Of a DNA stretch of 64,000 bases, positions 27,937-51,210 are shown piece by piece (position 1 is the stretch's first letter; every line of letters begins with the position of its first letter). This DNA is from an uncultured Saprospiraceae bacterium (GTDB lineage Bacteria; Bacteroidota; Bacteroidia; Chitinophagales; Saprospiraceae): contig CAYRDX010000009.1 in NCBI GenBank assembly GCA_964423205.1, positions 6,535 through 70,534 on the forward strand, given 5' to 3'. The translations under genes were made by a program, and so were the position numbers. The notes under the pieces are model-generated. The model did not search any database, was not told the DNA's origin, and saw nothing but the letters and a program-made list of their open reading frames with translations.

Positions 27937-29598
27937 ATGGGATCAAACAAAGGTATTGAGAAAGCCGAACTCGACATGATAGTGGATGCTATCAAAGCCT
28001 ATGCAACGGAAAATTTTCCGGAATCACGCCTGCTGGAACTGGACCACAATGACGAATACCCAATTGAAGACATCCGTAAAATGTGCGGCGAGGGTTTGGG
28101 CTTGCACCTCATTTTTATACCCCAGGAATATGAAGGAATGGGAGGAGGAGCATGGGACTCATACAGGGTTTGTGAAACCATGGCCAGCATCGACCTCGGT
28201 GTGGCAACCGGAATTTTTGCCACTTTCCTCGGTGCCGACCCCATTGTTTTTGGGGCAACCGAAGATCAAAAGAAGAATTGGCTTAGCCGCATAGCTGTTG
28301 AGGGATTGCTGCTGGCTTATGGTGCCACCGAACCTGATGCCGGCTCTGACTTAGGTGCTTTACGCACCACTGCAACTCCGGTAATGAAAGATGGTAAGGT
28401 CACAGGCTACAAACTCAATGGTGCCAAGCAGTGGATAAGCAATGGTGGTTATGCCGACATGTACACCATTTTGGCAAATGCCCCCGGCGGACCTACCTGG
28501 TTCGTGCTCGAAAAAGGTGCTGAAGGATTCGCATACGGAAAACCGGAAGACAAGCATGGTATCCGCACCAGCAATACCGCCGCACTTTCACTTGAAGAAG
28601 TTTATGTGCCGGCTGAAAATCTGGTTGGTGAAGGTGAAGGAAAAGGTCTGTATCAGGCGCAACTCGTATTTGGCTACACCCGTCTGATGGTTGCCGCTTT
28701 CGGACTTGGAGGCGGCTGGGGCGCACTCAACAGGGCTATCCCTTATTCGCAGGAAAGGATTCAAAGAGGTACACCACTTTCAGAAAAGCAGGGATATACC
28801 CACAAATTGATCGTTCCCAATGTCGCCCGTTTGGAAGCTGCCCGGTCTTATGTTGAGGAAACAGCAGAAAGGATTGACAATGACGAAGGCAATCTCAACA
28901 CCGAAGGAGCGATAGCAAAATACATGGCTACGGTTTCAGGTAATCAGGCAGCCGACGACAGCATTCAGGCCCTCGGTGGTTATGGTTTCACCAAAGAATA
29001 CATGGTTGAAAAACACAAGCGCGATGTGCGCATCACGACCATTTACGAAGGTACCTCCGAAATCATGGAGATGACCATCAGCCGTGACCGCTGGCAATTG
29101 CACCTGAAAACTCAAGGCCAGTACTACCATGATATGGCCCGGCAGATGGAAAGTCTGCATATCCAAAATCCAAACGTCGGTGCCAATATCGCCGCCATTG
29201 CTATGCATACACTCGCAGACCTGCTGGAGCAGGCCAGGGTAAGGCGACTGACACGCCATCAGCATATCCTGTTGCGCATTGGTGAGTGGATAGCCTGGGC
29301 AGAATGTGCCGGTTCTATGGCCAGAAGGGCCGTGCGGGCTGCCAATGGCACTCTACACGAGAAGGCTGACAACCGTTTTGATGCAAATGCACTGGCTACA
29401 CTTAGTCGCATTTATGCTCGCGAAGCCGCCATGAAAGTAGGTCAGGATGGCTTGAGATGGATACTGGGAGCGGATGCACTTACTCCAGCAGAGGCTGCAG
29501 CTTTTGAAAGTAAACTCAATTTGTCCAGTATCTATCTGGTTCAGACCGGTATGATCAGCGACATGGATGCCATTTGTGATGTAATTTATAAGAGATAG
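27937..29598 (+). CDS. acyl-CoA dehydrogenase family protein with a ~170-aa C-terminal extension
   Basis: [26 protein letters not shown] and [10 protein letters not shown] (catalytic Glu context). ATG 27937 is preferred. The gene ends 51 bp upstream of the megasynthase gene on the same strand. Confidence 0.85.
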
Positions 29599-29649
29599 TG
29601 AAAACGAGCCGGATGCCCTGTTAGCACCGGTCTTTGAAATTTTAGAAAA

Positions 29650-32600
29650 ATGGAAAAAGCAACACATAAAACAGTAGCGATTGTTGGTATTGGAGCAGTG
29701 ATGCCTGACGCCCACGATTTACCACTATTCTGGAATAATATTAAACAGGGAAAATACAGTGTAACCGAAGTCCCTGAAAATAGATGGAGTTTGGATAAAT
29801 ACTACGACCCCGATCCAAAAGTTCCGGACAAAACCTACAGCAAAATTGGAGGCTGGGTGAAAGATGATTATTGGGATCCTCTGAAATGGGGTTTGCCTAT
29901 TCCGCCAAGAATCTGCGACCAGATGGACAATACACAACGCTGGGCCATCAGTGCTACCAGACAGGCATTGGCAGATTTTGGTTTCCCTGAGAAGGATTTT
30001 GACCGCGACCGTACAGCCGTAATTTTTGGTGTGGCCATGGGAGGCGACCAACACTTGTATTCTGCAGCCCGGATTTTTGTCCCTGAATATATTGGTTTGC
30101 TGGACAAATCACCTGGATTTGCCACTCTCCCTGCTGATTTACGCAAGAAAATTATCGGCGAGATGACCGGCCAATTAGGGGATATATTCCCCAGCATTTC
30201 AGAAGATACCATGCCTGGTGAACTGTCGAATATTGTTGCTGGCCGCATCGCAGCACTATACAATTTCCACGGACCAAATTACGTGGCTGATGCAGCCTGT
30301 GCTTCCGCAATGGCCGGCATTTCTGCAGCTATCGAAGGTTTGGTCAGTCACGACTACGACATGGTTGTAACTGGAGGCATCGATGCCAACATGAGCCCGA
30401 CAACCTTTGTGAAATTCTGTAAAATTGGTGCACTCTCAGCCACTGGTACAAGGCCTTATGCCGAAGGAGCCGATGGTTTTATCATGGGAGAAGGGGCTGC
30501 AGTTTTCCTGCTGAAACGACTGGCAGATGCTGAGCGCGATGGTGATAAAATATATGCTGTCATTCGCTCGGTAGGCGGATCCAGCGACGGTAAAGGAAAG
30601 GGCATCACGGCTCCCAACCCGGCAGGTCAGGTATTTGCTGTGAAAAGAGCCTGGGAAAATTCCGGCGTTTCACCTTCAACTGCTACCATGATAGAAGGAC
30701 ATGGTACATCGACATCCGTGGGTGATGCTGTGGAATTGAAATGCCTGCAGGATGTCTTCGGACAATTCAACCTGCCGGTTGGGTCAATCGCTCTGGGTTC
30801 CATTAAATCCAATATCGGCCACCTGAAGGGTGCTGCAGGAGCTGCGGGAATTGCGAAGGCCGTCATGTCATTGCATGAAAAAGTGCTGCCACCCAGCATC
30901 AACTTCCATTCCCCCAATTCCGGTTTTGAATTCGAAAAATCACCTTTTGCTGTGAACACACATTTGAGGCCTTGGGAGATGAAAAACGGAATCCCGCGCC
31001 GTTGTGGTGTGAGTGCATTCGGTTTTGGTGGAACAAATTTCCATGTGGTTCTGGAAGAACACATACCAGGAAAAATACTTTCCGAACAAAAAACTCAGGT
31101 ATTCATGGCCAGCGAACCGGAAGCACCCCATGCTGCACCATTGAAAGTCCCTCTCAGAGGGGCGATGGTGAAAGGTACAAGTTCAAAGGAGGCTTTGGTT
31201 GCTTTCCTGGAAGAAAGCCTTACCAAAGCAGAAGGCGGATGGACGCCAGCCATTGAACCACCACTGAAGGCTGACTTAAAAGCTGATCATCGCATTGCCC
31301 TTGATTTTGAAAATTCAACCGACCTGGCCGGTAAAATCAAGAGAGCTATAAACGGTTTGCAATCCGACAATCCCAAAATATGGGATGCACTGAATGCCAA
31401 AGGTATTTTTTATAGCCAGGGGCCGGTTACGAAAACGGCATTCCTCTTCACTGGTCAGGGTTCCCAGTACATCAATATGCTGAAAGAGCTGAAAGAAATT
31501 GAACCCATCGTGAAGAAAATTTTCGACGAGGCCGATGAAGTCATGAAGCCCTTGTTGGGAAAGCCCTTGACGGAGTACATCTTTTTCGATAGAAACGATA
31601 AAGAAGCGGTGGAAGCAGCCACCAAAAACCTGATGCAGACGGAAATAACACAACCCGCTGTATTGTCAGTTGATTATGCCCTTTTTAAAATGATGGAAGC
31701 TTACGGGATAAAACCCGACTATGTCATGGGTCACAGTTTAGGGGAATATGGAGCTTTAGTTGCTTCAGGAGCGCTGGAGTTTGCCAGCGCACTGAAAGTG
31801 GTCAGTGCCCGCGGTGCGGAAATGGCCAACGTGAAAGTGGAGGACAAGGGCATCATGGCTGCAGTTTTCGCTTCTCCGGACCAGATTTCGGAAGTCATCA
31901 GCAAGATTGATGGTTATGTTGAAATTGCCAATGTGAACAGTTTCGGGCAATGCGTGATAGGCGGTGAAACAGAATCGACTTTGGCAGCCATGAAAGCCTG
32001 TAAAGCAGCGGGTTACCATGTGACTCAATTGCCGGTTAGCCATGCCTTCCACACAAGAATTGTAGCGCCTGCCAGTATTCCATTTGCCAATGCGCTCAGA
32101 AATGGGAAATTGAAAGCACCTTCTATTCCAGTAATTTCCAACGTTACCGGCGAATTTTATCCCACAGGAGCGGATGTAGTTCCTGAGATACTGGATCTAC
32201 TCTCCAGGCAGATTGCCTCCCCGGTTCAGTTTGTAAAAGGCATCAACAAATTGTACGAAAGTGGTGTCCGTGTATTTGTGGAATGTGGTCCAAAAAGGGC
32301 CTTGCATGGTTTTGTCAAAGACATCACAGCTGAAAAGGAAGATGTGATGAACCTTTTCACCAACCAGCAAAAAGGTGGTGATATAGCTTCATTTAACCAG
32401 GCACTTTGTGGCTTGTATGCAGCCGGACTTGGATACGGCCGTGAAGAAATAAAAGTTGAGGTCCCACAGCAGGAAGTTCCTGCAGTGCAAGTTCAGGATA
32501 CTATGCCTGTCGCAAGCAAATCGGCTCCGGTACCAACTTTTTCCAGCCAACAGACATCATCACCGGAAACCCCTTCCAGCACACCATCTGGTGATAGATA

Positions 32601-35600
32601 TTCCCAACTAGGTAAGCTCTTTGTCGAATTCATGGACAAAGCCAATGCAGTGTACTCAGGAACTACCGGATCGCGTCCTGTGCAGGATATCTGGATAACC
32701 GGTGCAGCAGTGGGACTACCCAAGGTGGATGGAGTTTTCAGCGACTCCAACGTGGAGAAACTGCTGAATGGCGAGCAATTGATTAGTAACATTCCCGCTG
32801 AGTTTCAACAGGCCATGCTCGACAGGAATATCACACGCCTGGTGAAAATGGGACACGGCGGGCCACGGTTCGAAACCATTTCCACAATCAATGAAGTCAT
32901 AAAACTGGCCGCCCGAAAGGCCGGTATGGATTTAGCCGCCGATTTTGGATACCCCTCCAAACGTATGAGCGCCCTCGACATCACGACGGAACTGGCCATC
33001 GGTGCTGGCATCGATGCTATGCGGGATGCTGGTATTCCAATGGTCATGCACTATAAGACAACGACCACAGGCTCCAAATTACCCGACAGATGGTTGCTGC
33101 CTGCCCAGATGCAAAATGATACAGGCATCATTTTCTGTTCGGCTTTTCCTGGTTACAACAACTATGCAAAGGAAATGAGGGAGTACTTTGAAAATAAGGC
33201 TCTCAAAGAACAGTTGTCTGTATTGAACAGTCTGCGAACCAGGATAGGTGCACAAAACGGCGCAGAAAAATTACATCTGGAAATTGATTCCCAAATCCTA
33301 AGGGTTCAGAAAGAACTGGAGAAAACACCTTATTCCTTTAACCGCAGATTCTTGCTGCGGGTATTGGCAATGGGCCACTCTCAGTTTGCTGAATATATCG
33401 GAGCCAAAGGCCCCAATACGCAAATCAACTCTGCTTGCGCAAGCACAACCCTGGCAGTGGGAATGGCAAAAGACTGGATTGAAGCTGGACGTTGCAAAAG
33501 AGTTATCATAATTGCAGCCGATGACATTACAGCTGATGAAACGATTGGCTGGTTCTCCAGTGGTTTTCTGGCCGCGGGTGCAGCCGCAACAGACGCCAGG
33601 GTGGAAGACGCAGCCCTGCCATTCGACAAACGTCGCCACGGCATGATAGTCGGTATGGGTGGTGCAGCCATAGTGGTGGAATCAGGTGGTTCAGCTTCTG
33701 AAAGAGGCATCAAACCAATTTGTGAAGTACTTAGCACGGTAGCAGCTAACAGCGCTTTCCACGCCACTCAGCTCGATGTGGACCATATCAAGTGCATCAT
33801 GGAGGATCTCATAGCAGAGGCAGAACGCAAGTGGGGAATCGACCGCTATGAAATTGCCGCTCAAACGGTTTTTGTCTCTCATGAAACCTATACTCCCGCC
33901 AGAGGCGGCAGTGCTTCCGCTGAAATATTTGCGCTGCGCCATGTTTTCCAGTCGGCTGCCGATAAAATAGTCATTGCCAACACGAAAGGCATGACAGGAC
34001 ATGCCATGGCAGTTGGTATTGAAGATATACTGGCCATTAAATCTCTGGAAACCGGATGGGTACCGCCTGTTCCCAATTTCAAAGAAGTTGACCCGGAACT
34101 CGGAATGCTCAACCTGTCGAAAGGAGGAGCCTATCCCATTCGTTATGCACTCAGATTGGGTGCCGGTTTTGGTTCACAAATAGCCATGAGTCTCCTGCGC
34201 TGGACACCTGCTTCCGTAGATGGGTCCAGGCCAAAACCCAATCAGTTGGGGTATGCTTATCGCATCAACGACAATGACAGATGGAGAAACTGGTTGAAGG
34301 TAATCAGCGGTAAAGACGCACCTGAAATGGAGGTTGTAAAACGAACCCTCAGGATAAAAGATAAGTTTGGTGAACTATTAAGTGAGCCAGAAGATAACCT
34401 GAACGGCTTTGCTGAAGAAACTGCATCAACTGAACAGACCGTAACGGTGGAAACCACAGGAGTCGTGGTCGAAAACAATGGCCGAACTGAGTTATCAGAT
34501 CCGGTCAGAGACCGAATTTTAACACTCATTTCAGAAAAGACAGGTTACCCGGTCGATATGCTCAATCCCGACCTTGACCTGGAGGCCGATCTGGGTATCG
34601 ACACGGTAAAACAAGCTGAATTGTTTGCCGAAATCCGCGGCGAATACGGCATTGAGCGGGACGACAACGTTCAGTTGTCCAATTTCCCGACGCTCAACCA
34701 CATTATACAGTTCGTTTACGACAAACGTCCAGGCCTAAAGCAGGCTGCCTCAACTGTTGCTACTTCCCCAACTCTATCAGCAGCCTCAATGGACGCTCCT
34801 GCAACGGCGGCGGCCTCGTCCCCCCTCGAAAGGAGTTGGGGGGTGACCTCACCAGCCCTGACTGATGGAGTCAAGGAAAAAATTCTCTTTCTCATTGCCG
34901 AAAAAACCGGCTACCCGGTTGAAATGCTCGACCCTGAGCTCGACCTGGAGGCAGACCTCGGCATCGATACAGTCAAACAGGCAGAACTCTTTGCTGAAAT
35001 CCGCGGCAACTGGGGCATCGACAGGGACGATAACCTGCAACTGGCAGATTTCCCGACTATCAATCATATCGTCCAGTTTGTCTATGACAGGAAACCAGAA
35101 TTGAAGCAGGATTCGGTTTTACTGTCTGTGACCACCACTACTTCCGCAGACCTAGTGTCTGAAAAAGCTCCGGAAGACCATATAAAGTTTAGTAATCTCG
35201 AGGCTGTCAATCAGATTCCCAGACGCATTCCAACACCGCAACTCAGACCAGCACTGAAATATTGCAAAGCATCAGGTGTGCAACTCAACGATGAAACAAC
35301 AGTGCTCGTCATGCCCGACAATGGTGGAGTCGCAAAGTCTCTCCTTTCGCAACTGAAGAAATCGGGAGCGAAAGTGCATGTGCTTGATCAAGGTATTACC
35401 GCTGACCAACTCAGCAAACAGCTCTGTGATTTATCGGCAAATGGGCCCATTCACGGCGTGTACTGGTTGCCTGCACTCGATTACGAGGGTGACATTGAAA
35501 AACTGAGTTACAGGGATTGGAAAGCAGCCACGCAACTTCGTGTGAAGCTTCTTTACGCAACAATGCGTGAACTGGTGCTGCTGAAAAACGAAAACGTTTT

Positions 35601-37716
35601 CCTCGTCTCTGCAACATGCATGGGTGGCCATTTCGGGTACGACGAAAATGGTGCGCTTGCTCCTTTGGGTGGTGCGGTTTCTGGTTTTACAAAAGCATAC
35701 AAACGGGAGCATCCTGCTGCACAGGTGAAAGTGGTCGATTTTGAGAAATCACGCAAGACCACAGCCAACGCACAATTGCTGATTGACGAAACGCTCTTAG
35801 ATCCAGGTATTGTGGAAGTCGGATACAAAGATGAACAAAGATGGAGCATTGGTTTGCAGGAGGTGCCCGTTCCGCAGGGAAGCGAAGGCATGAAACTAAC
35901 CAAAGAATCCACTTTCCTGGTTACCGGTGCAGCCGGCAGCATCACCTCGGCCATCACGGCTGACCTTGCCGCTGCATCATCGGGAACGTTCTTTCTGCTC
36001 GACCTCACTCCTTCACCTGATCAATCGGATGCTGACCTGATTCGCTTCGCAAATGATAAGGAGGGTCTGAAGCGTGAAATTTTCAACCGCATGACTGCAT
36101 CTGGCGATAAACCCACGCCAGTCAAAGTGGACAAAGAGCTCGCTGCGATCGAGCGCAGATATTCAGCCCTTGCTGCCATTGAGGCAGTAGAAAAGGCCGG
36201 TGGCACAGCACACTATTACAGCGTTGACCTTCGTGACCAAAAGGCTGTTGCGGCAGCAGTGAAGGATATCAAAAAGAAAGTGAATAGGATTGATGTTATG
36301 CTGCACGCAGGAGGATTGGAAATCAGCCGTTTGCTGCCCGACAAGTCGCCGCAGGAATTCGACCTCGTATTTGATGTAAAAGCAGATGGCTGGTACAACC
36401 TGCTTTCGTCATTTGGCGAGTTCCATATCGGGGCAACTGTGGCCTTCAGCTCTATTGCCGGAAGGTTTGGCAACGGCGGCCAGACCGACTACAGTTCCGC
36501 CAATGACTTCCTTTGCAAGAGCACATCGAGCTTCCGCACCTACCGTCCGGAGACTCGTGGCATTGCACTCGACTGGACAGCATGGGGTGGTATTGGCATG
36601 GCTACCCGGGGTTCTATCCCTACAGTTATGAAACAAGCCGGCATCGACATGCTGCCACCGGAAGCGGGAATTCCGTTTATCAGAAAAGAACTGACTGCTG
36701 CCAATACCGGAATGGAAGTGGTAGTGGCACAGCGCCTCGGCAGGATGATGGAGGAATTTGATTATAATGGTGGACTTCAACCGGAAGCCGTCAGTGAAAG
36801 ACTGCAACAAAGCAAAGGGGTGATGGTGCAGGAAGTGGTGAAAATGGGCCTCTATGAAGGACTGGTTACCAAAGCAAGCTTCAATCCAAAAGAGCAGGGC
36901 TTCCTTTTCGATCACCAGATTAACGGCACCCCGGTATTGCCGGGTGTCATGGGCATCGAAGCGATGGTGGATGCCGCCACTTGTTTATTCCCGGAACTAC
37001 ATGTTCAGTCGGTTGAAGCTGTGGACTTTTTTGCTCCGTTCAAGTTTTATCGCTCAGAACCGAGAGAAGTGTTTGTGAAAGTCATCTATCTGGCAGATGG
37101 CTCTAATGTCGCAGCTAATTGCGAGTTGTTCGGTACCCGCAAACTACATGGCCAAACCAAAGAGGAGGTGAAGACTCACTTCAGCGCCAAAGTCTTTCTC
37201 GGAGAAAAAGCACCGGAAAAACCAGCACCATTGACAAAAAAATTAGATCCTTCGAAAAAGCAGGCAGTAGCTGTGCCGGATGATATTTACAAACTTTACT
37301 TCCACGGCCCGGCCTATCAGGTCATCGAAAAGACATGGAAGAAAGGGGAAGATATGGTTGGGCTTTACGCAAACGGTATTCCAGCCAACCACCATCCGGA
37401 GGAGCTGCAAACTCTGGCCCTGCCGCGGTTTGTGGAATTGTGTTTCCAGGTGGCTGGCATCACAGAAATGGGTGGACATGGAAGAATGGGATTGCCCAGG
37501 CACCTCGACTCACTGCAAATACACAGGCAAGCTGTTATTGGCAAAGCCAATTATTACGCTGTAGTGAGTCAGGATAATGGGGCTTACCATGCTTCTGTGG
37601 TGGATTCGAAAGGTGAAGTTTACCTGACCCTGAAGGGTTACCAGACGGTTGAGTTTATTTCGGATTTTGATAAAAATCTGTTGGTGCCTTTGCAGGCTGT
37701 GGCAGGAGGAGAGTAG
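29650..37716 (+). CDS. PfaA/HglE-like iterative type I fatty-acid/polyketide megasynthase: KS - AT - second KS-like domain - ACP - ACP - KR - PKS-type DH
   Basis: 2688-aa ORF. KS1 spans about 29671-31065 (DAACASAM Cys217, HGTSTSVGD, NIGHLKGAAG). AT spans about 31441-32320 (GHSLGEYG Ser696, VSHAFHT). A Pro/Ser-rich linker follows. KS2-like spans about 32689-34203 (NSACAST Cys1263, SHETYTP, TGHAMAVG). ACP1 is about 34501-34725 and ACP2 about 34864-35095 (both LGIDTVKQAELFAEIRG). KR spans about 35250-36720 (VTGAAGSITS, Tyr2281 in DYSSAND). DH spans about 36830-37700 (His2422 in DHQINGTPVLPG). Confidence 0.9.
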   Translation: MEKATHKTVAIVGIGAVMPDAHDLPLFWNNIKQGKYSVTEVPENRWSLDKYYDPDPKVPDKTYSKIGGWVKDDYWDPLKWGLPIPPRICDQMDNTQRWAISATRQALADFGFPEKDFDRDRTAVIFGVAMGGDQHLYSAARIFVPEYIGLLDKSPGFATLPADLRKKIIGEMTGQLGDIFPSISEDTMPGELSNIVAGRIAALYNFHGPNYVADAACASAMAGISAAIEGLVSHDYDMVVTGGIDANMSPTTFVKFCKIGALSATGTRPYAEGADGFIMGEGAAVFLLKRLADAERDGDKIYAVIRSVGGSSDGKGKGITAPNPAGQVFAVKRAWENSGVSPSTATMIEGHGTSTSVGDAVELKCLQDVFGQFNLPVGSIALGSIKSNIGHLKGAAGAAGIAKAVMSLHEKVLPPSINFHSPNSGFEFEKSPFAVNTHLRPWEMKNGIPRRCGVSAFGFGGTNFHVVLEEHIPGKILSEQKTQVFMASEPEAPHAAPLKVPLRGAMVKGTSSKEALVAFLEESLTKAEGGWTPAIEPPLKADLKADHRIALDFENSTDLAGKIKRAINGLQSDNPKIWDALNAKGIFYSQGPVTKTAFLFTGQGSQYINMLKELKEIEPIVKKIFDEADEVMKPLLGKPLTEYIFFDRNDKEAVEAATKNLMQTEITQPAVLSVDYALFKMMEAYGIKPDYVMGHSLGEYGALVASGALEFASALKVVSARGAEMANVKVEDKGIMAAVFASPDQISEVISKIDGYVEIANVNSFGQCVIGGETESTLAAMKACKAAGYHVTQLPVSHAFHTRIVAPASIPFANALRNGKLKAPSIPVISNVTGEFYPTGADVVPEILDLLSRQIASPVQFVKGINKLYESGVRVFVECGPKRALHGFVKDITAEKEDVMNLFTNQQKGGDIASFNQALCGLYAAGLGYGREEIKVEVPQQEVPAVQVQDTMPVASKSAPVPTFSSQQTSSPETPSSTPSGDRYSQLGKLFVEFMDKANAVYSGTTGSRPVQDIWITGAAVGLPKVDGVFSDSNVEKLLNGEQLISNIPAEFQQAMLDRNITRLVKMGHGGPRFETISTINEVIKLAARKAGMDLAADFGYPSKRMSALDITTELAIGAGIDAMRDAGIPMVMHYKTTTTGSKLPDRWLLPAQMQNDTGIIFCSAFPGYNNYAKEMREYFENKALKEQLSVLNSLRTRIGAQNGAEKLHLEIDSQILRVQKELEKTPYSFNRRFLLRVLAMGHSQFAEYIGAKGPNTQINSACASTTLAVGMAKDWIEAGRCKRVIIIAADDITADETIGWFSSGFLAAGAAATDARVEDAALPFDKRRHGMIVGMGGAAIVVESGGSASERGIKPICEVLSTVAANSAFHATQLDVDHIKCIMEDLIAEAERKWGIDRYEIAAQTVFVSHETYTPARGGSASAEIFALRHVFQSAADKIVIANTKGMTGHAMAVGIEDILAIKSLETGWVPPVPNFKEVDPELGMLNLSKGGAYPIRYALRLGAGFGSQIAMSLLRWTPASVDGSRPKPNQLGYAYRINDNDRWRNWLKVISGKDAPEMEVVKRTLRIKDKFGELLSEPEDNLNGFAEETASTEQTVTVETTGVVVENNGRTELSDPVRDRILTLISEKTGYPVDMLNPDLDLEADLGIDTVKQAELFAEIRGEYGIERDDNVQLSNFPTLNHIIQFVYDKRPGLKQAASTVATSPTLSAASMDAPATAAASSPLERSWGVTSPALTDGVKEKILFLIAEKTGYPVEMLDPELDLEADLGIDTVKQAELFAEIRGNWGIDRDDNLQLADFPTINHIVQFVYDRKPELKQDSVLLSVTTTTSADLVSEKAPEDHIKFSNLEAVNQIPRRIPTPQLRPALKYCKASGVQLNDETTVLVMPDNGGVAKSLLSQLKKSGAKVHVLDQGITADQLSKQLCDLSANGPIHGVYWLPALDYEGDIEKLSYRDWKAATQLRVKLLYATMRELVLLKNENVFLVSATCMGGHFGYDENGALAPLGGAVSGFTKAYKREHPAAQVKVVDFEKSRKTTANAQLLIDETLLDPGIVEVGYKDEQRWSIGLQEVPVPQGSEGMKLTKESTFLVTGAAGSITSAITADLAAASSGTFFLLDLTPSPDQSDADLIRFANDKEGLKREIFNRMTASGDKPTPVKVDKELAAIERRYSALAAIEAVEKAGGTAHYYSVDLRDQKAVAAAVKDIKKKVNRIDVMLHAGGLEISRLLPDKSPQEFDLVFDVKADGWYNLLSSFGEFHIGATVAFSSIAGRFGNGGQTDYSSANDFLCKSTSSFRTYRPETRGIALDWTAWGGIGMATRGSIPTVMKQAGIDMLPPEAGIPFIRKELTAANTGMEVVVAQRLGRMMEEFDYNGGLQPEAVSERLQQSKGVMVQEVVKMGLYEGLVTKASFNPKEQGFLFDHQINGTPVLPGVMGIEAMVDAATCLFPELHVQSVEAVDFFAPFKFYRSEPREVFVKVIYLADGSNVAANCELFGTRKLHGQTKEEVKTHFSAKVFLGEKAPEKPAPLTKKLDPSKKQAVAVPDDIYKLYFHGPAYQVIEKTWKKGEDMVGLYANGIPANHHPEELQTLALPRFVELCFQVAGITEMGGHGRMGLPRHLDSLQIHRQAVIGKANYYAVVSQDNGAYHASVVDSKGEVYLTLKGYQTVEFISDFDKNLLVPLQAVAGGE

Positions 37717-37717
37717 G

Positions 37718-37904
37718 GATTGAGGAGGTTGAGGGAGTTGAGAGAAGTTAAATGAAATCCGCGAGTATAGCCTCTGCGTAACTTCGCGCGTAATCTCTGC
37801 GGTTCTCTGTGTAATATCGCAGAGCTTCCCAGAGGATACACAAAGTTACTCAGAGGAGCGGTGCGTTATTAATCACCCTCAACTCCCTTAAACTCCCTCA
37901 ACTT
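37718..37904. repeat. composite hairpin: gttgagg word arms enclosing CTCTGCG/CTCTGTG heptads
   Basis: The left arm gattgaggaggttgagggagttgagagaagtt pairs with the right arm caccctcaactcccttaaactccctcaactt. The interior holds ctctgcg ... cgcagag and cagagg units. It starts 2 nt after the megasynthase stop. Confidence 0.8.
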
Positions 37905-38022
37905 ATCTTCTGGTAACAAGAAATCATAATGTCATTACTGTCAGTAGCCTGGTTCGCCCAATCATCCTGCGAGTAACATGTTCATTCACGAGAAATTTGA
38001 ATATTGGTTTAGCTATGGCCCA

Positions 38023-38116
38023 GCCACGTAGTGGCGATACCGTTTATAGAAATGCTAATTGATGGAATTTAGTCACGTAGTGACGGCCCGAAAAGTAGGT
38101 GCCGCCACTACGTGGC
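38023..38116. repeat. three copies of a 13-nt CACGTAGTG-core motif (two direct, one inverted)
   Basis: gccacgtagtggc (38023-38035), gtcacgtagtgac (38072-38084) and gccactacgtggc (38104-38116). Copies 1 and 3 are exact reverse complements. The cluster lies about 100-190 nt upstream of the PPTase start. Confidence 0.8.
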
Positions 38117-38211
38117 TCGATAGAATTTGTGGTGTTAACTATTAACTGAATCGGGGCTAACGCCCCTTTTACTTTCAGTTTTGGGAGTACCGAAACAATA
38201 ACTTTCTAATC

Positions 38212-38910
38212 ATGTTGCCCCTCATGGTCTTTTGGCTTAGGCAAACTTCCAGTGAGTTGCCCAACTCACTGGTCTGGCTGCATCCATTGGAGTTGGAGAC
38301 ATTTTCTGCCTTTAAGTTTCCCAAAAAACAAAACGACTGGTTGCTCGGCAGATGGACGGCCAAAAAAGCCGTAATTAGTTTCCTTAAAGAAAGTCATCCC
38401 ACTCTCCAAAACTCTGATTTTGCCATCATCAGAGCAAAAGATGGGGCACCGGAAATTCACTGCGAAGCAGAACCTTTGCCTGCGTTCCTTTCACTGAGTC
38501 ACAGTCATGGAAAGGCATTTTGTATCGTTGCAAAACCTGGTTTTCGGATGGGTTGCGATTTGGAGAAAATTGAAAAACGCAGTCCACTATTCGTCCGGGA
38601 TTATTTCACTGCAAGTGAGCAGGAATTGCTCAGCGCTGTCGACTCTGAGAGACAACCACTGCTAACCAACCTTATTTGGAGTGCCAAAGAAAGCACCATG
38701 AAAGCACTGAGAACGGGGCTGCGAATTAACCCATTGCGAATTGAGGTGCAAATATCGCCTCCGCTTGATAAAGAGGAATGGCAGGAACTACGAACTGTTT
38801 ATTCAGATAACACAATCAATTTCCGTGGCTACTGGCAATCTGGAAGTGGATATGTTTACACGGTGCTTTCGGATTGCCTGGAACGGGAGTTGGAAGAGTT
38901 GAAAACTTAG
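38212..38910 (+). CDS. 4'-phosphopantetheinyl transferase (Sfp/EntD/PfaE type)
   Basis: 232-aa ORF. RWTAKKAVISFL, SLSHSHG, GCDLEKIE (Mg-binding motif) and WSAKESTMKAL (W/KEA motif). Confidence 0.85.
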   Translation: MLPLMVFWLRQTSSELPNSLVWLHPLELETFSAFKFPKKQNDWLLGRWTAKKAVISFLKESHPTLQNSDFAIIRAKDGAPEIHCEAEPLPAFLSLSHSHGKAFCIVAKPGFRMGCDLEKIEKRSPLFVRDYFTASEQELLSAVDSERQPLLTNLIWSAKESTMKALRTGLRINPLRIEVQISPPLDKEEWQELRTVYSDNTINFRGYWQSGSGYVYTVLSDCLERELEELKT

Positions 38911-43547: not shown

Positions 43548-43600
43548 ACTGTTGAAAGTTGAGTTGGTTGAGTTGGTTGAAAGGGTTGAGAGGCAGAGTC

Positions 43601-43782
43601 GATTGGTTCTGGTTTTTGACTGGTTTTTGATTGACGATATATGATTGACGATATCAGATTTTTGATTTTCCGAGACAAGAACCGGCCGTTTGCGTCCCGA
43701 AAAATCAAATCCCGATAGCTATCGGGATACGTCTGATATCTTAAATCTGAAATCAAAAAACCCTTATAAACCAGAACCAATC
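43601..43782 (+). mobile_element. 182-bp MITE-like non-autonomous element, copy 1
   Basis: Perfect 15-bp terminal inverted repeats gattggttctggttt / aaaccagaaccaatc. The interior has a 20-bp palindrome atcccgatagctatcgggat and internal direct repeats (tgattgacgatat x2). There is no coding capacity. It is nearly identical to 47967-48148 in the opposite orientation. Confidence 0.8.
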
Positions 43783-43909
43783 AGCCCTGGGTTAGGGGGT
43801 TGAGAAAGTTGAGGCAATTGAGAGGTGCTATCTCAACTCAACCTTCTAAACTTCCTCAACCAACTCAACCACATCAGGAATTGTCATTTTTCCAAATAAA
43901 ATCAATGCC

Positions 43910-44113: not shown

Positions 44114-44301
44114 AAATGATATTTTGCAATCGGTTGCAGAAGTCTTTTTCAATTTATTACCTTGTGCTTTCTATCTCGATTTTCAGTACTACTCCATCAA
44201 GTGTAGTAATGTAAACTCAGTGCAACACCTGTTTATAACCACCAGACACAGTATGCGAAACGCAGGGTGCTTCCAGGCTGTGTTTGCCAATTCACAGCGT
44301 T

Positions 44302-45441
44302 ATGCAAACCATGAAAGCAATCTCCATTTTGTTCTTCGTTCTGCCCATCGCATTTTCCTGTAATTCTGAATCAGCTCAAAAGGCAAGCTCCAGCAATGCC
44401 AATTCTTTGAAAGATGCCTACAAAGACAACTTTTACATTGGCGCTGCTTTGGGTGCCGAACACATCAGAGAAGAAGATCCAATAGCTTCTGGCCTCGTTT
44501 CCAAGGAATTCAACAGCCTCACAGCTGAAAACATTATGAAATGGATGTACATCCATCCAGAAAGGGGAAAGTTTAACTTCGAACTACCCGATAAGTTTGT
44601 GGCATTGGGTGAAAAACACGGGATGCAACTGATTGGACATACACTGATTTGGCACAGTCAGACAGCGCCCTGGGTAAATAACATTAAGACAGGCGGGGAG
44701 ATGGAAAAGGTGATGGAGGAACACATCAGTTCCATAGTCGGTCATTTCAAAGGTAAGATTCATGGCTGGGATGTGCTCAATGAAGTATTGAATGAAGACG
44801 GAACCTTGCGCGAATCCATTTTCCTGAAAACTATGGGAGAGTCTTATATCAAAAAAGCTTTTGACCTGGCGGCGGCTGCCGATCCTGAGGCCGAACTGTA
44901 TTACAACGATTACAACATTGAACAGCCCAGGAAAAGGGAAGGATGTATTAAAATGATAAAAAAGCTGCAGGAAAGCGGGACGAAAATTGATGGAGTTGGC
45001 ATTCAGGGTCACTGGGGATTAAATGGTCCTCCAGTGGAAGAAATTGAAAAGAGTATCATCGAGTACGCCGCCCTTGGACTTAAAGTGATGTTTACGGAAG
45101 TGGATATCAACGTATTACCCAACCCCTGGGACTTGACCGGTGCCGATGTGAGTTTGAACTATCCTGGCAGTCCACACATGAATCCCTATCCAGAGGGGCT
45201 TCCAGATTCTATTGCAATAAAACAAGCCAAACGCTACAAGGATATTTTCAAGGTACTCATCAAACACCAGGATAAAATTGACCGTGTAACTTTTTGGGGC
45301 GTAAATGATGGTCATTCCTGGAAAAACAACTGGCCGATAAAAGGCCGGACGGATTATCCTTTACTTTTTGATAGGGAGTTTAAACCGAAAAAAGCCTATT
45401 ACAGCGTAATGGAACTGAAAAACCCTGACATTAAACCTTGA
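44302..45441 (+). CDS. endo-1,4-beta-xylanase, glycoside hydrolase family 10
   Basis: Lipoprotein-like signal (ILFFVLPIAFSC), GHTLIWHSQ, WDVLNE (acid/base) and FTEVDI (nucleophile). Confidence 0.9.
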   Translation: MQTMKAISILFFVLPIAFSCNSESAQKASSSNANSLKDAYKDNFYIGAALGAEHIREEDPIASGLVSKEFNSLTAENIMKWMYIHPERGKFNFELPDKFVALGEKHGMQLIGHTLIWHSQTAPWVNNIKTGGEMEKVMEEHISSIVGHFKGKIHGWDVLNEVLNEDGTLRESIFLKTMGESYIKKAFDLAAAADPEAELYYNDYNIEQPRKREGCIKMIKKLQESGTKIDGVGIQGHWGLNGPPVEEIEKSIIEYAALGLKVMFTEVDINVLPNPWDLTGADVSLNYPGSPHMNPYPEGLPDSIAIKQAKRYKDIFKVLIKHQDKIDRVTFWGVNDGHSWKNNWPIKGRTDYPLLFDREFKPKKAYYSVMELKNPDIKP

Positions 45442-45469
45442 TATAAAAATCGCTTTAAACAGGTAACAG

Positions 45470-46891
45470 ATGAACAACGTTTCACAAAAACTATCCGTGC
45501 GGGAAAAGGTAGGATATTCCCTCGGCGATCTTGCTGCAAACCTGGTTTTCCAGACCCTTTTGACATTTCTCGCCTTCTTTTATACTGATGTGTACGGGTT
45601 GAAACCAGAAATAGCTACGCCGATTATTTTTTTCGTCGGCATTTTCGCTGCTGTCATTTTTAACCCCATCATGGGGGCAGTGGCCGACCGCACCAATACG
45701 CGCTGGGGAAAATTCAGGCCCTGGATACTTTGGACTGCAGTGCCACTGGGGGCCATAGCGTTGCTGGCATTCAGTACGCCAAACTTCAGCATGCAGGGCA
45801 AAATCATTTATGCCATCATCACCTACACCCTTTTGCTGATGTTGTATGCCGCCAACAACCTGCCTTATGCGGCCCTGAGTGGCGTTATCACCGGTAATAT
45901 GGCTGAGCGAAACAGCCTTTCTTCCTATCGCTTCGTGGCAGTTATGGCAGCACAATTCATCGTTCAGGTACTGATGTATCCCTTCGTAGACTACATGGGA
46001 GGTGGCGACAGGGCTCTTGGCTTTTCCAAAGTAATGACCTTTCTGGCAGCGACCGGCACTTTGCTTTTGCTGATAACCTTTTTTACAACGAAAGAAAGGA
46101 TAGTGCCCAAGCCGGAACAGAAATCCACCCTGAAGGAAGATTTAGACGACCTAATCAAAAACCGGCCCTGGGTAATCATGCTGTTGCTTACCATCCTGGT
46201 GTTCATCACGCTCGCACTGAAAGGGGGAATGTATGTTTATTATTTTGAAAATTACCTCGACAAAGCAGCAATAGGTGGCTTCCTCGGCAAGTTTGGACTA
46301 CAAAATATCGAAAATCCGGCATCCTATGGTTTCAGTGTTTTCAACGGCTGCGGCATCGTTTTCATGATCATCGGAATCATGTTTTCAAAACCACTGGCAG
46401 ATAAATATGGTAAACGGGATGTGTTCGGAATAGCGCTGGTGATTTCTACATTGTTCATACTGGTACTGTATTTTATATCACCATCCGGTATCAGCATGGT
46501 GATGCTTGCGCAAATCCTGCATGGCTTTTTCTATGGCATTACCATCCCAATTCTATGGGCAATGATTGCGGATGTGGCAGATTATTCGGAATGGAAAAAT
46601 AACCGCCGGGCCACTGCCATTATCTTTTCAGCCATGATGGTCGGCCTAAAACTGGGCCTTACTTTCGGTGGCGCCCTTGTTACGGGTATCTTGGGTGTTT
46701 ACGGATATGATGCGACTCTGACAAGTCAATCCGATGCTGCGGTTCAGGGAATCAGGATGTCCGTCAGCGTTTATCCGGGTATTTTCTTCTTGATTGGCGC
46801 GGCGCTTCTTTTCTTTTATGAAATTAACAAGGCAAAGGAGACGCAGATTGAGCAGGAATTGGCTGCACGCAGATTGGAGTCAAAACAATAA
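45470..46891 (+). CDS. glycoside-pentoside-hexuronide (GPH):cation symporter family MFS transporter
   Basis: LSVREKVGYSLGDLAANLVFQ N-terminus, RWGKFRPW motif and 12 TM helices. Confidence 0.85.
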   Translation: MNNVSQKLSVREKVGYSLGDLAANLVFQTLLTFLAFFYTDVYGLKPEIATPIIFFVGIFAAVIFNPIMGAVADRTNTRWGKFRPWILWTAVPLGAIALLAFSTPNFSMQGKIIYAIITYTLLLMLYAANNLPYAALSGVITGNMAERNSLSSYRFVAVMAAQFIVQVLMYPFVDYMGGGDRALGFSKVMTFLAATGTLLLLITFFTTKERIVPKPEQKSTLKEDLDDLIKNRPWVIMLLLTILVFITLALKGGMYVYYFENYLDKAAIGGFLGKFGLQNIENPASYGFSVFNGCGIVFMIIGIMFSKPLADKYGKRDVFGIALVISTLFILVLYFISPSGISMVMLAQILHGFFYGITIPILWAMIADVADYSEWKNNRRATAIIFSAMMVGLKLGLTFGGALVTGILGVYGYDATLTSQSDAAVQGIRMSVSVYPGIFFLIGAALLFFYEINKAKETQIEQELAARRLESKQ

Positions 46892-46948
46892 CACGGGTAT
46901 TTCACCCTCCTGCTTTAATTGCAACTAAGGTCAAAAAATAACTTCATC

Positions 46949-48148: not shown

Positions 48149-48193
48149 AACCCTGCCTTATAGGGATTAGGTAGAACCTGTCAAGAAAAGAAA

Positions 48194-49909: not shown

Positions 49910-49914
49910 ATATT

Positions 49915-51172: not shown

Positions 51173-51210
51173 CTACTTAATTTTTGACTCATTACTTAAT
51201 TAAAATCAAG

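What the first reader, a model, noticed from the sequence alone, without database searches (positions are those of the whole stretch)
27937..38910. Orphan three-gene module: long acyl-CoA dehydrogenase, 2688-aa PfaA/HglE-like megasynthase and a dedicated Sfp-type PPTase
Three co-directional genes form a compact unit. The ACAD-to-synthase gap is 51 bp. The PPTase follows after a repeat-filled spacer. Divergent and convergent unrelated genes flank the unit: a ROK sugar operon on one side and an aldo/keto reductase on the other. The megasynthase has KS, malonyl-type AT (GHSLG, HAFH), tandem carrier domains, KR and a PKS-type DH, like PfaA of PUFA synthases or HglE of heterocyst-glycolipid synthases. 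The window contains no PfaB/C/D-type partners, no enoyl reductase, no FabA-type DH, and no thioesterase or reductase release domain. The only candidate for C=C chemistry is the ACAD, which carries an unusual C-terminal extension. It might work on carrier-bound acyl chains, as FkbI/TcsD-type enzymes do. The product and the release mechanism cannot be deduced from known paradigms.
Basis: partly seen in the sequence, partly recalled or inferred. Interest (0 to 1): 0.72.

Follow-up and report, generated by a model that had tools for sequence, protein, structure and literature searches.

The report
ER-less lipid megasynthase with flavoprotein partner
The three genes are a real, self-contained unit of a widespread but uncharacterised bacterial lipid-synthase family ("Type R"), which always travels with one acyl-CoA-dehydrogenase-type flavoprotein (probably its missing enoyl reductase) and whose carrier domains all have threonine where every studied carrier protein I know of has the cofactor-bearing serine.

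Summary
ACAD (27937-29598), a 2688-aa synthase (29650-37716) and an Sfp-type PPTase (38212-38910) lie co-directionally between unrelated genes.

The module is not unique. It matches the "Type R secondary lipid synthase" of Shulse & Allen 2011, whose product is unknown. Relatives occur in hundreds of species genomes: Acidobacteriota, Bacteroidota, Calditrichota, KSB1, Binatia and Actinomycetota.

- **ACAD partner.** A 59-84% identical ACAD sits directly upstream in 74 of 74 loci with enough flank. I found no report of this. In Terriglobia and Binatia the array is EtfD-like/EtfB/EtfA-ACAD-synthase-ACC-PPTase.
- **ACAD extension.** Its C-terminal extension is the VLCAD-type extra helical domain.
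- **Second KS.** Its Cys-His-His triad is intact, so it is not a CLF.
- **Carrier threonine.** All 855 carrier motifs examined but one read DLG[IV]DTVK. Thr replaces the phosphopantetheinyl Ser.

Best explanation, by inference: an ER-less iterative FAS-like synthase whose enoyl reduction is done in trans by the ETF-linked ACAD. The dedicated PPTase serves the Thr carriers.

The product, the release step and the direction of ACAD catalysis remain untested.

The parts
27937..29598 (+). Acyl-CoA dehydrogenase-family flavoprotein, 553 aa. ACAD N/M/C domains plus a VLCAD-type extra C-terminal helical domain (aa ~400-553). Catalytic Glu371 in the IYEGT motif.
   Evidence: Pfam. Best sequence matches in the PDB are Bcd and MCAD. 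AF2 model has pLDDT 81; Foldseek top hits 3owa, 2z1q and human VLCAD align over ~560-585 columns. The Glu is invariant in 53/53 orthologues. An orthologue lies directly upstream of the synthase in 74/74 loci.
29599..29649 (+). 51-bp ACAD-synthase intergenic gap, operon-like.
   Evidence: The median gap in related loci is ~72 bp.
29650..37716 (+). 2688-aa iterative type I synthase with architecture KS1-AT-KS2-ACP-ACP-(psiKR)-KR-DH. It has no ER, TE or reductase domain.
   Evidence: TIGR02813 (PfaA) scores 955 bits, below the 1010 cut-off.
29668..31092 (+). KS1 (aa 7-481). Residues Cys217, EGHGT349 and KSNIGH386.
   Evidence: PF00109/PF02801/PF16197. Motifs.
31441..32343 (+). Malonyl-type acyltransferase (aa 598-898) with GHSLGE694 and HAFH798.
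   Evidence: PF00698. TIGR00128 fabD scores 221 bits. Motifs are conserved in 119-120 of 120 homologues.
32665..34329 (+). KS2 (aa 1006-1560). A second, FabF-like ketosynthase with an intact Cys1263/His1411/Lys1446/His1451 set and a ~70-aa helical insertion. It was called 'CLF' in the 2011 classification.
   Evidence: The triad columns are invariant in alignment A1 and align with the FabF catalytic residues. Identity across phyla is 57-76%.
34510..34716 (+). Carrier domain 1 (aa 1621-1689). Thr1652 (ACG, nt 34603-34605) sits at the phosphopantetheine-Ser position of the DLGIDTVK motif.
   Evidence: PF00550. DNA read. The Thr aligns with the Ser of PigH and bacterial ACPs.
34876..35082 (+). Carrier domain 2 (aa ~1743-1811), with Thr1774 (ACA, nt 34969-34971).
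   Evidence: The domain bounds come from the 122-aa repeat offset.
35911..36588 (+). Ketoreductase (aa 2088-2313) with Tyr2281 in YSSAN. A weak psiKR region precedes it (aa ~1895-2040).
   Evidence: PF08659. Motif present in 120/120 homologues.
36853..37647 (+). PKS-type double-hotdog dehydratase (aa 2402-2666) with His2422 in HQINGTPVLP.
   Evidence: PF21089 and PF14765. Motif.
37717..38211 (.). 495-bp spacer. It holds a long palindromic element with GTTGAGnnn-repeat arms (37717-37910), a second inverted repeat (38022-38117) and a terminator-like hairpin (38153-38166 plus a T-run).
   Evidence: In related loci where the PPTase follows the synthase directly the gap is mostly -4 to 94 bp, so this spacer looks like an insertion.
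38212..38910 (+). Sfp-type 4'-phosphopantetheinyl transferase, 232 aa. Residues His97, G114-C-D116-x-E118 and W156-S-x-K-E160-S-x-x-K164.
   Evidence: PF01648. Weak HetI and AcpT hits. Conserved residues from 21 orthologues. Orthologues lie downstream of the synthase, directly or after an ACC gene.

Best explanation
**What the module is**

It is a member of the widespread 'Type R' secondary-lipid synthase family. It is an iterative, malonyl-CoA-fed, type I FAS/PKS-like megasynthase with architecture KS1-AT-KS2-ACPn-KR-DH.

**Shown**
- The domain set and intact catalytic motifs.
- No ER, TE or reductase domain.
- An invariably adjacent, co-evolving ACAD with VLCAD architecture.
- A co-conserved Sfp-type PPTase.
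- In relatives, adjacent EtfD-like, EtfB, EtfA and multidomain acetyl-CoA carboxylase genes.
- Thr in place of Ser in every carrier domain.

**Inferred mechanism**
1. The AT loads malonyl units on the tandem carriers.
2. The two active KS domains elongate, perhaps dividing the work by chain length as in PUFA synthases.
3. The KR and DH produce trans-2-enoyl-carrier intermediates.
4. The ACAD reduces these in trans, running in the reductive direction like the butyryl-CoA dehydrogenase or acryloyl-CoA reductase/ETF complexes. It takes electrons from ETF, which draws on NADH or on menaquinol through the EtfD-like membrane Fe-S protein.
5. The ACAD thereby supplies the missing ER step, and the product is a saturated or mostly saturated long acyl chain.
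6. The dedicated PPTase exists because the carriers bear Thr and are probably not substrates of the housekeeping enzyme.
7. Release is most likely by the AT to CoA (as the fungal FAS malonyl/palmitoyl transferase does) or by a lipid acyltransferase. Many Terriglobia loci carry a WS/DGAT gene alongside.

The final lipid is unknown.
For: **Architecture**
- Domains and motifs.
- No ER-type domain anywhere in the 2688 aa. The only unassigned stretches are a linker and a psiKR.

**ACAD linkage**
- A full-length, co-directional ACAD lies directly upstream in 74/74 loci from at least 6 phylum-level groups. The median gap is ~72 bp.
- Pairwise identities of ACAD and KS2 correlate at r = 0.94.
- The ACAD orthogroup is discrete: 64-66% identity and >800 bits, against <=46% and ~500 bits for the next full-length relatives. 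Two of those relatives were checked and do not sit next to such a synthase.
- The catalytic Glu is invariant.

**Link to ETF and malonyl supply**
- EtfD-like, EtfB and EtfA lie immediately upstream in 45/53 acidobacterial and 2/13 other loci, with gaps of 0-40 bp.
- The best equivalog-level NCBIfam hits of the ACAD, EtfB and EtfA are the three subunits of clostridial acryloyl-CoA reductase, AcrC/AcrB/AcrA. That complex is reductive ACAD-ETF chemistry.
- The best PDB sequence hit is Megasphaera Bcd.
- A multidomain ACC lies next to the synthase in 48 loci, which argues for a high-flux, malonyl-consuming biosynthetic direction (PMC3098273).

**Carriers and PPTase**
- Carrier Thr.
- Canonical PPTase catalytic motifs.
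Against: - No biochemical datum exists for any member, and the product is unknown.
- ACAD + ETF + membrane EtfD is the textbook oxidative chain of beta-oxidation.
- The ETF type (bifurcating/NADH-using or not) could not be resolved. The EtfB top PDB hit is the non-bifurcating W3A1 ETF. The EtfA top hit is the bifurcating C. difficile Etf.
- All NCBIfam hits to AcrA/B/C are far below their cut-offs.
- The window and the other Bacteroidota and Calditrichota loci have no etf genes nearby.
- No ACAD has been shown to serve as the ER of a FAS or PKS (own knowledge).
- Nothing shows that the ACAD uses carrier-bound rather than CoA-bound substrate.
- Phosphopantetheinylation of Thr is unprecedented to my knowledge, so the carriers' status is itself uncertain.
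- The r = 0.94 correlation partly reflects shared species phylogeny.
Confidence: 0.5

Rival explanations
1. The ACAD works in the usual oxidative direction. It dehydrogenates a saturated acyl chain, either an externally supplied primer or a carrier-bound intermediate or product. This could be an alpha,beta or TcsD-like gamma,delta desaturation. Electrons pass to ETF, then to the EtfD-like membrane protein, then to quinone. The system would then make an unsaturated lipid.
For: - ACAD-EtfAB-EtfD-like is the canonical oxidative electron path (own knowledge), and the gene order fits it.
- VLCAD architecture is typical of long-chain oxidising ACADs.
- The catalytic base Glu is retained.
Against: - The synthase has no ER, so no saturated carrier-bound chain arises for the ACAD to oxidise unless an unrelated ER acts first.
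- The KR-DH pair already gives 2-enoyl intermediates, which makes an alpha,beta-dehydrogenase redundant.
- The adjacent ACC points to de novo synthesis.
- PDB and NCBIfam matches to acyl- or prolyl-carrier dehydrogenases are much weaker than to Bcd/AcrC.
Confidence: 0.2
2. The synthase is a true ER-less iterative PKS that makes a conjugated polyene or polyhydroxy chain, for example a pigment or specialised metabolite in the manner of enediyne PKSE or aryl-polyene systems. The ACAD is only a tailoring or selective-reduction enzyme.
For: - KS-AT-ACP-KR-DH without an ER is the polyene-forming domain set (own knowledge).
- Two loci with the nearest ACAD relatives (44-46% identity) lack the synthase. 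One pairs the ACAD with an SDR gene, and one has a carbamoyltransferase upstream and FAAL and carrier genes on the opposite strand. This shows that this wider ACAD group occurs in other gene contexts.
Against: - Tandem carriers (2-7 per protein), an adjacent primary-type ACC and, in many loci, a WS/DGAT gene suggest bulk lipid flux rather than a trace metabolite.
- The core is extremely conserved (KS2 57-76% identical) and identical in content across distant phyla, with no variable tailoring genes.
Confidence: 0.15
3. The gene is the PfaA or HglE subunit of a split canonical PUFA or heterocyst-glycolipid synthase, with PfaB/C/D or HglC/D/G partners encoded elsewhere in the genome.
For: - TIGR02813 (PfaA) is the best NCBIfam hit, at 955 bits.
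- Only 64 kb of this genome is visible.
Against: - The score is below the family cut-off of 1010.
- An extra active KS sits inside the protein.
- No PfaB/C/D-like family recurs within +/-10 kb in 80+ loci.
- In complete genomes (Koribacter, Solibacter, Elusimicrobium, Roseiflexus) the published Type R cluster is described as the pfaA homologue plus a PPTase only (PMC3098273).
Confidence: 0.05
4. The ACAD is an ordinary beta-oxidation gene that lies next to the synthase by chance.
For: It has a generic ACAD domain set, and public annotations call it 'acyl-CoA dehydrogenase'.
Against: Adjacency is 74/74 across phyla. The orientation is the same, the gaps are short, the orthogroup is discrete and it co-varies with the synthase.
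Confidence: 0.01

Closest known systems
'Type R' secondary lipid synthase gene cluster (Shulse & Allen 2011, PMC3098273): Koribacter, Solibacter, Elusimicrobium, Roseiflexus
   Same: - One pfaA homologue with KS-MAT-(second KS-like)-tandem ACP-KR, followed by a PPTase gene.
- An ACC gene is sometimes inserted between the two.
- There are no pfaB/C/D genes.
- Distribution across phyla is patchy.
- The product is unknown.
   Different: - The paper calls the second KS a CLF, but here its Cys-His-His triad is intact and invariant.
- The paper lists 3-6 ACPs; the window has 2.
- It does not list the C-terminal DH.
- It does not mention the upstream ACAD, the ETF genes or the Thr carriers.
PfaA subunit of bacterial PUFA synthase (pfaABCDE; TIGR02813)
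   Same: N-terminal KS-MAT, tandem carrier domains, KR and a PKS-type DH. A dedicated Sfp-type PPTase (PfaE).
   Different: - The score is below the TIGR02813 cut-off.
- An extra KS lies between the AT and the ACPs.
- There is no PfaB (AT), no PfaC (KS-CLF-FabA DHs) and no PfaD (FMN ER).
- The carriers carry Thr, not Ser.
- An ACAD partner is present instead.
HglE / heterocyst glycolipid synthase (antiSMASH class hglE-KS)
   Same: PfaA-like KS-AT-ACPn-KR protein that makes a long-chain lipid.
   Different: No HglC/D/G/A/B partners, no reductive release and no cyanobacterial context.
Butyryl-CoA dehydrogenase/EtfAB and acryloyl-CoA reductase (AcrABC) complexes of anaerobes
   Same: - An ACAD with the MCAD-position catalytic Glu, working with an EtfAB pair.
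- These complexes physiologically reduce enoyl thioesters.
- They give the best NCBIfam equivalog hits for the ACAD, EtfB and EtfA, and the best PDB sequence hit (1buc).
   Different: - All scores are far below the family cut-offs.
- The substrate here would be a long, probably carrier-bound chain.
- The ACAD has an extra VLCAD-type domain.
- A membrane Fe-S/CCG protein accompanies the ETF.
- No etf genes are visible in this window.
VLCAD / ACAD9 / long bacterial ACADs (PDB 7s7g, 3b96, 8phe, 3owa, 2z1q)
   Same: Four-part architecture with an additional C-terminal helical domain. Foldseek TM ~0.75 over the whole length.
   Different: Only 24-26% identity. These enzymes are beta-oxidation dehydrogenases acting on acyl-CoA, with no synthase linkage.
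FkbI / TcsD / PigA-RedW-type acyl- or prolyl-carrier-protein dehydrogenases
   Same: ACAD-fold enzymes encoded in PKS/NRPS clusters that act on carrier-bound substrates.
   Different: - They are much weaker matches: prolyl-ACP dehydrogenase 4irn scores 113 bits against 200 for Bcd, and RedW/PigA models score 126-143 bits against 238 for AcrC.
- They are oxidative tailoring enzymes, not cycle enzymes.
Enediyne PKSE (KS-AT-ACP-KR-DH-PPTase)
   Same: An ER-less iterative KS-AT-ACP-KR-DH enzyme related to PUFA synthases, with its own PPTase function.
   Different: PKSE has a single KS, a single ACP, a fused PPTase and a partner thioesterase, and it makes a polyene. It has no ACAD and no ACC.

Membership tests
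Type R secondary lipid synthase (Shulse & Allen 2011) | A single pfaA homologue with KS-MAT-(CLF/second KS)-tandem ACP-KR | tested here: met
   Pfam and motif mapping give KS1-AT-KS2-ACPx2-KR(-DH). The ACP number (2) is below the published 3-6. The 120 homologues have 3-6.
Type R secondary lipid synthase (Shulse & Allen 2011) | PPTase gene downstream, sometimes separated from the synthase by an ACC gene | tested here: met
   PPTase at 38212-38910. Related loci have a PPTase or an ACC downstream in 67/68.
Type R secondary lipid synthase (Shulse & Allen 2011) | No pfaB/pfaC/pfaD homologues accompany it | tested here: inconclusive
   None lie in the 64-kb window. None recur within +/-10 kb of 80+ loci. 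The rest of the genome is not visible.
Type R secondary lipid synthase (Shulse & Allen 2011) | Proximal KS clusters phylogenetically with the published Type R KS sequences | not tested
   The Koribacter, Solibacter, Elusimicrobium and Roseiflexus sequences were not retrievable with these tools. The assignment rests on architecture, gene order and the acidobacterial homologues.
PUFA synthase PfaA (TIGR02813) | Score at or above the curated cut-off of the PfaA model | tested here: not met
   955 bits against a cut-off of 1010.1.
PUFA synthase PfaA (TIGR02813) | Works with PfaB, PfaC (KS-CLF-FabA DH) and PfaD (ER) | tested here: not met
   Absent from the window and from the flanks of related loci. 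Genome-wide absence is untested.
Heterocyst glycolipid synthase HglE | Clustered with hglC/hglD/hglG-type partners and a release or reductase function | tested here: not met
   No such genes lie in the window or in conserved flanks.
VLCAD-type (long) acyl-CoA dehydrogenases | ACAD N, M and C domains with a catalytic Glu | tested here: met
   PF02771, PF02770 and PF00441. Glu371 in IYEGT is invariant.
VLCAD-type (long) acyl-CoA dehydrogenases | An additional C-terminal alpha-helical domain of ~150-180 aa | tested here: met
   In the AF2 model, residues 395-550 are helical with pLDDT mostly 85-98. Foldseek full-length matches to 3owa, 2z1q, VLCAD and ACAD9. A weak second PF00441 hit.
VLCAD-type (long) acyl-CoA dehydrogenases | Oxidises long-chain acyl-CoA in beta-oxidation | not testable with these tools
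   Needs enzymology.
Sfp-type PPTase | ACPS-superfamily domain, ~230 aa two-lobed protein, with the SHS His, G-x-D-x-E and W-x-x-K-E-x-x-x-K motifs | tested here: met
   PF01648 at 66 bits and a weak 4PPT_N hit. H97, D116, E118, E160 and K164 are conserved in 21 orthologues.
Carrier proteins (PF00550) | Ser in the (D/E)-x-G-x-D-S-(L/I/V) motif as the phosphopantetheine attachment site | tested here: not met
   Thr at both window motifs. Thr in 541 of 542 plus 314 of 314 motifs of relatives. The Thr aligns with the Ser of solved ACPs. The fold and the rest of the motif are met (PF00550).
ACAD-EtfAB enoyl-CoA reductase complexes (Bcd/Etf, AcrABC) | ACAD encoded with its EtfA and EtfB partners | tested here: not met
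   No etf gene lies in the window. The feature is met in 47 related loci from Terriglobia and Binatia.
ACAD-EtfAB enoyl-CoA reductase complexes (Bcd/Etf, AcrABC) | NADH-binding (two-FAD) ETF and net reduction of the enoyl thioester | tested here: inconclusive
   PDB ranking mixes bifurcating and non-bifurcating ETFs. NCBIfam hits to AcrA/B/C are below cut-off. The direction of catalysis needs experiments.

The most novel reading that the evidence does not exclude
Type R synthases are a third architecture of type I fatty-acid synthase. They would be common in soil Acidobacteriota and in Bacteroidota, Calditrichota and Binatia.

- The enoyl-reduction step is not NAD(P)H/ER-domain chemistry. A dedicated VLCAD-like ACAD does it, wired through ETF and a membrane Fe-S protein to the respiratory quinone or NADH pool.
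- The growing chain rides on threonine-linked phosphopantetheine. A cognate PPTase installs this arm, and the modification insulates the system from the cell's housekeeping ACP machinery.
Probability: 0.3. Interest if true: 0.85.

Novelty: new variant of a known kind. Interest (0 to 1): 0.7.

Why it matters
- **Abundance.** The family occurs in hundreds of species of some of the most abundant soil and sediment bacteria. Genome mining flags it routinely (own knowledge: as hglE-KS or PfaA-like; this labelling was not tested here). No product or mechanism has been reported.
- **ACAD as reductase.** If the ACAD is the enoyl reductase, it would be the first FAS/PKS whose reduction step is ETF-linked flavoprotein chemistry. 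Lipid synthesis would then be tied to the quinone/NADH pool rather than to NADPH.
- **Threonine carriers.** The invariant Thr at the carrier attachment site challenges the rule that phosphopantetheine is carried on Ser. It gives a simple, testable reason for the dedicated PPTase.
- **Small test system.** The window's 11-kb version is the smallest form found: ACAD, a synthase with only two carriers, and a PPTase. That makes it a convenient construct for heterologous expression.

Tried and rejected
- **Exact look-up.** Looking up the window synthase (and P0001) in the contig index found nothing, so the source genome could not be named. The cluster look-up gave no names either. The host is inferred as Bacteroidota/Saprospiraceae-like from a T9SS sorting domain and the closest homologues.
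- **Literature.** Nine searches found only the 2011 Type R description. They covered Type R follow-ups, hglE-KS with ACAD, ETF with PUFA synthase, Elusimicrobium PKS and Thr-phosphopantetheinylation.
- **ETF classification.** The ETF classification paper (10.1128/JB.00440-17) is not held. Whether the linked ETF is bifurcating therefore stays unresolved.
- **Other checks that found nothing.** A search of the window for etfA, etfB, EtfD, ACC and WS/DGAT homologues gave no hits. Rfam found nothing in the region. The sigma-70 promoter scan was no better than shuffles.
- **Ideas rejected.**
  - KS2 is not a CLF, because its triad is intact.
  - No hidden ER domain lies in the unassigned stretches.
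  - The MDR-type dehydrogenase at 57997-59025 is not a partner. It lies 19 kb away and is not conserved near relatives.
  - The many antisense 'conserved ORFs' in the clustering are shadow ORFs inside the synthase or ACC.

Full report
**1. Observation**

The window has three co-directional ORFs on the + strand.
- 27895/27937-29598.
- 29650-37716 (2688 aa).
- 38212-38910 (232 aa).

With the ATG at 27937 the first product is 553 aa. All three products are identical to proteins called independently on one 85,957-bp NCBI contig (P0121, P0001, P0391).

The ACAD-synthase gap is 51 bp. The synthase-PPTase spacer is 495 bp.

Upstream on the opposite strand lie ROK, MFS and SIS genes. Downstream and convergent lies an aldo/keto reductase.

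The rest of the 64 kb encodes housekeeping proteins and a xylan-utilisation cluster. I found no ETF, ER, thioesterase, FabA-type or PfaB/C/D-type gene.

A T9SS sorting domain in a neighbour and the closest homologues (Saprospiraceae and Lewinellaceae) place the host in Bacteroidota.

**2. Anatomy of the synthase**

Pfam and motif mapping give the following domains.
- **KS1** (aa 7-481): Cys217, His in EGHGT, His in KSNIGH.
- **AT**, malonyl-type (598-898): GHSLGE and HAFH.
- **KS2** (about 1006-1560), a second ketosynthase.
- **Two carrier domains** (1621-1689 and about 1743-1811).
- **psiKR and KR** (2088-2313): YSSAN.
- **Double-hotdog PKS-type DH** (2402-2666): HQINGTPVLP.

The protein ends about 20 residues after the DH. 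It has no ER, TE or reductase domain.

A profile of KS2 from nine family members aligns from the active-site Cys onward with FabF structures. Cys1263, His1411, Lys1446 and His1451 match the FabF catalytic residues and are invariant. KS2 is therefore very probably an active condensing enzyme, not a chain-length factor.

KS2 is 57-76% identical across phyla.

The best NCBIfam model is PfaA (TIGR02813). It scores 955 bits, below its 1010 cut-off.

**3. The ACAD**

It has the three ACAD domains. The catalytic Glu sits at the MCAD position (IYEGT) and is invariant in orthologues.

By sequence it is closest to butyryl-CoA and medium-chain dehydrogenases (1buc, 200 bits). Its best NCBIfam hit is clostridial acryloyl-CoA reductase AcrC (238 bits, far below cut-off).

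An AlphaFold model (pLDDT 81, pTM 0.86) matches long ACADs over its whole length with TM about 0.75: B. anthracis 3owa, Thermus 2z1q, human VLCAD and ACAD9. The 'unusual' C-terminal extension is therefore the known VLCAD-type extra helical domain.

**4. The PPTase**

It is a canonical Sfp-type enzyme (PF01648). His97, D116/E118 and E160/K164 are conserved.

**5. Comparative genomics**

The synthase has thousands of database relatives.

The 80 best loci come from:
- Acidobacteriota (mostly Terriglobia);
- Bacteroidota/Saprospiraceae;
- Calditrichota;
- KSB1;
- Binatia;
- Acidimicrobiales/Actinomycetota.

A full-length, co-directional ACAD orthologue lies immediately upstream in every locus with enough upstream DNA: 74 of 74, 13 of them outside Acidobacteriota. 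These orthologues are 59-84% identical to the window's and include the C-terminal domain. The median gap is about 72 bp.

ACAD and KS2 pairwise identities correlate at r = 0.94.

In a search of 1.8 billion cluster representatives the ACAD orthogroup stands apart. Its representatives are 64-66% identical and score over 800 bits. The next full-length relatives are at most 46% identical and score about 500 bits. Two of those relatives do not neighbour such a synthase.

Downstream, a PPTase or an ACC gene follows in 67 of 68 loci. The PPTase follows either directly (gaps mostly -4 to 94 bp) or after a 1,880-aa multidomain acetyl-CoA carboxylase.

Unsupervised clustering of all flanking ORFs found only these further recurrent families:
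- the ACC, in 48 loci;
- an EtfD-like/EtfB/EtfA trio in 45 of 53 acidobacterial and 2 of 13 other loci (both Binatia), lying immediately upstream of the ACAD with gaps of 0-40 bp; the EtfD-like member is a ~690-aa membrane Fe-S/CCG-domain oxidoreductase;
- a WS/DGAT acyltransferase in about 20 loci.

The family therefore comes in two forms.
- **Minimal:** ACAD-synthase-PPTase, as in the window.
- **Extended:** EtfD-like-EtfB-EtfA-ACAD-synthase-ACC-PPTase.

**6. Threonine carriers**

Both carrier motifs in the window read DLGIDTVK. Thr is encoded by ACG at 34603-34605 and by ACA at 34969-34971.

Alignment with solved carrier proteins puts this Thr exactly on the phosphopantetheinylated Ser (DLGVDSIA, DLGADSLD).

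The same holds for 541 of 542 carrier motifs in the 120 closest homologues and for 314 of 314 in the genome loci. Ser never occurs.

To my knowledge every characterised carrier protein uses Ser, and the E. coli ACP S36T mutant is not modified by AcpS. I found no paper describing Thr carriers. This is unexplained. The simplest reading is that the co-conserved PPTase is specialised for Thr carriers.

**7. Literature**

Shulse & Allen 2011 (PMC3098273) defined a 'Type R' secondary lipid synthase.
- It is one pfaA homologue, KS-MAT-CLF-ACP(3-6)-KR, followed by a PPTase gene.
- In Koribacter an ACC gene separates the two.
- It occurs in Acidobacteria, Elusimicrobium and Roseiflexus.
- Its product is unknown.

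Architecture, gene order, the ACC insertion and the taxa all match the family found here.

The paper does not mention the ACAD, ETF, the DH, the intact KS2 triad or the Thr. Eight further searches found no later characterisation.

**8. Mechanism**

*Shown.* The synthase has a complete set of condensing, loading, ketoreducing and dehydrating activities with carriers. It has no enoyl reductase and no release domain. Its one universal partner is an ACAD. In many lineages dedicated ETF genes, a membrane Fe-S protein and a malonyl-CoA-producing ACC join them.

*Inferred.* The ACAD supplies the missing enoyl reduction in trans on carrier-bound 2-enoyl intermediates. It would use reduced ETF, as the Bcd/Etf and acryloyl-CoA reductase complexes do. 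The best equivalog-type hits of the ACAD, EtfB and EtfA are the three subunits of that reductase, though all fall below cut-off. The ACC argues for a biosynthetic, high-flux direction.

*Speculative.* Release by the AT to CoA, as in fungal FAS, or by a lipid acyltransferase such as the linked WS/DGAT.

*Main rival.* The ACAD may act oxidatively, since ACAD to ETF to EtfD to quinone is the textbook direction. That would need a saturated substrate, which an ER-less synthase cannot make. I rate the ER model at about 0.5 and the oxidative or tailoring models together at about 0.35.

**9. Verdict**

The module is a compact member of a known but uncharacterised family. It has only two carriers, the fewest among the 120 homologues.

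Three family-wide features are, as far as I can find, unreported:
- an obligatory ACAD, with ETF in many lineages;
- a catalytically intact second KS;
- Thr-type carriers.

These make it a new variant of the iterative type I FAS/PKS kind and a good experimental target.

Noticed in passing
window 34603-34605 and 34969-34971 (Thr1652 and Thr1774 of the synthase); also all carrier motifs in P0001-P0120 and L001-L086: The carrier-domain motif is DLG[IV]DTVK. Thr replaces the phosphopantetheine-bearing Ser in 855 of 856 motifs examined, and Ser never occurs.
   Followed up: partly
L015-L085 (Terriglobia and Binatia loci), e.g. L030:1248-5131: A membrane Fe-S/CCG oxidoreductase (EtfD-like, ~690 aa), EtfB and EtfA lie in tight operon-like order immediately upstream of the ACAD. 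A 1,880-aa single-chain acetyl-CoA carboxylase lies between the synthase and the PPTase. A WS/DGAT gene lies further upstream in ~20 loci.
   Followed up: yes
window 37717-37910; 43554-43876; 7480-7503: Intergenic palindromic elements whose arms consist of 9-bp 'GTTGAGnnn' repeats: 13 matches against 0.27 expected by chance. The copy right after the synthase stop codon folds into a ~190-nt hairpin (-80 kcal/mol, z = -7.65). It probably explains why this synthase-PPTase spacer (495 bp) is longer than in most relatives. The elements look MITE- or REP-like.
   Followed up: partly
window 38153-38176: A terminator-like GC hairpin (GGGGCTAACGCCCC) followed by a T-run, on the + strand, 46 bp before the PPTase start. 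The PPTase may therefore be transcribed separately here. A second inverted repeat (AGCCACGTAGTGGCG-type) lies at 38022-38117.
   Followed up: no
window 28001-38000: The module is slightly GC-richer (0.487-0.497) than its flanks (0.42-0.465). The 2011 paper notes a similar offset for the Elusimicrobium homologue. This could reflect horizontal transfer or simply amino-acid composition.
   Followed up: no
synthase 29650-37716 compared with P0002-P0120: The window's synthase has only 2 carrier domains and is the shortest of the 120 closest homologues. The others have 3-6 carriers and are 2,715-3,233 aa long.
   Followed up: yes
L088:1505-5246: A 44%-identical, same-length ACAD paralogue (P0246) sits beside a carbamoyltransferase, with convergent AMP-binding (FAAL-like) and carrier-protein genes. 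The wider clade of VLCAD-like ACADs may commonly work with carrier-bound acyl chains.
   Followed up: no
window 44284-52602: A xylan-utilisation gene cluster: GH10 xylanase, MFS_2 transporter, two GH43 enzymes, an SMP-30/gluconolactonase-like protein and a GH30-like protein. It is unrelated to the lipid module.
   Followed up: no
PPTase residue Cys115 (window 38554-38556): The metal-binding motif reads G-C-D-x-E, with an invariant Cys where, as I recall, Sfp-type enzymes usually have Ile or Val. The Cys is conserved in 21 orthologues. Any link to Thr-carrier recognition is unknown.
   Followed up: no
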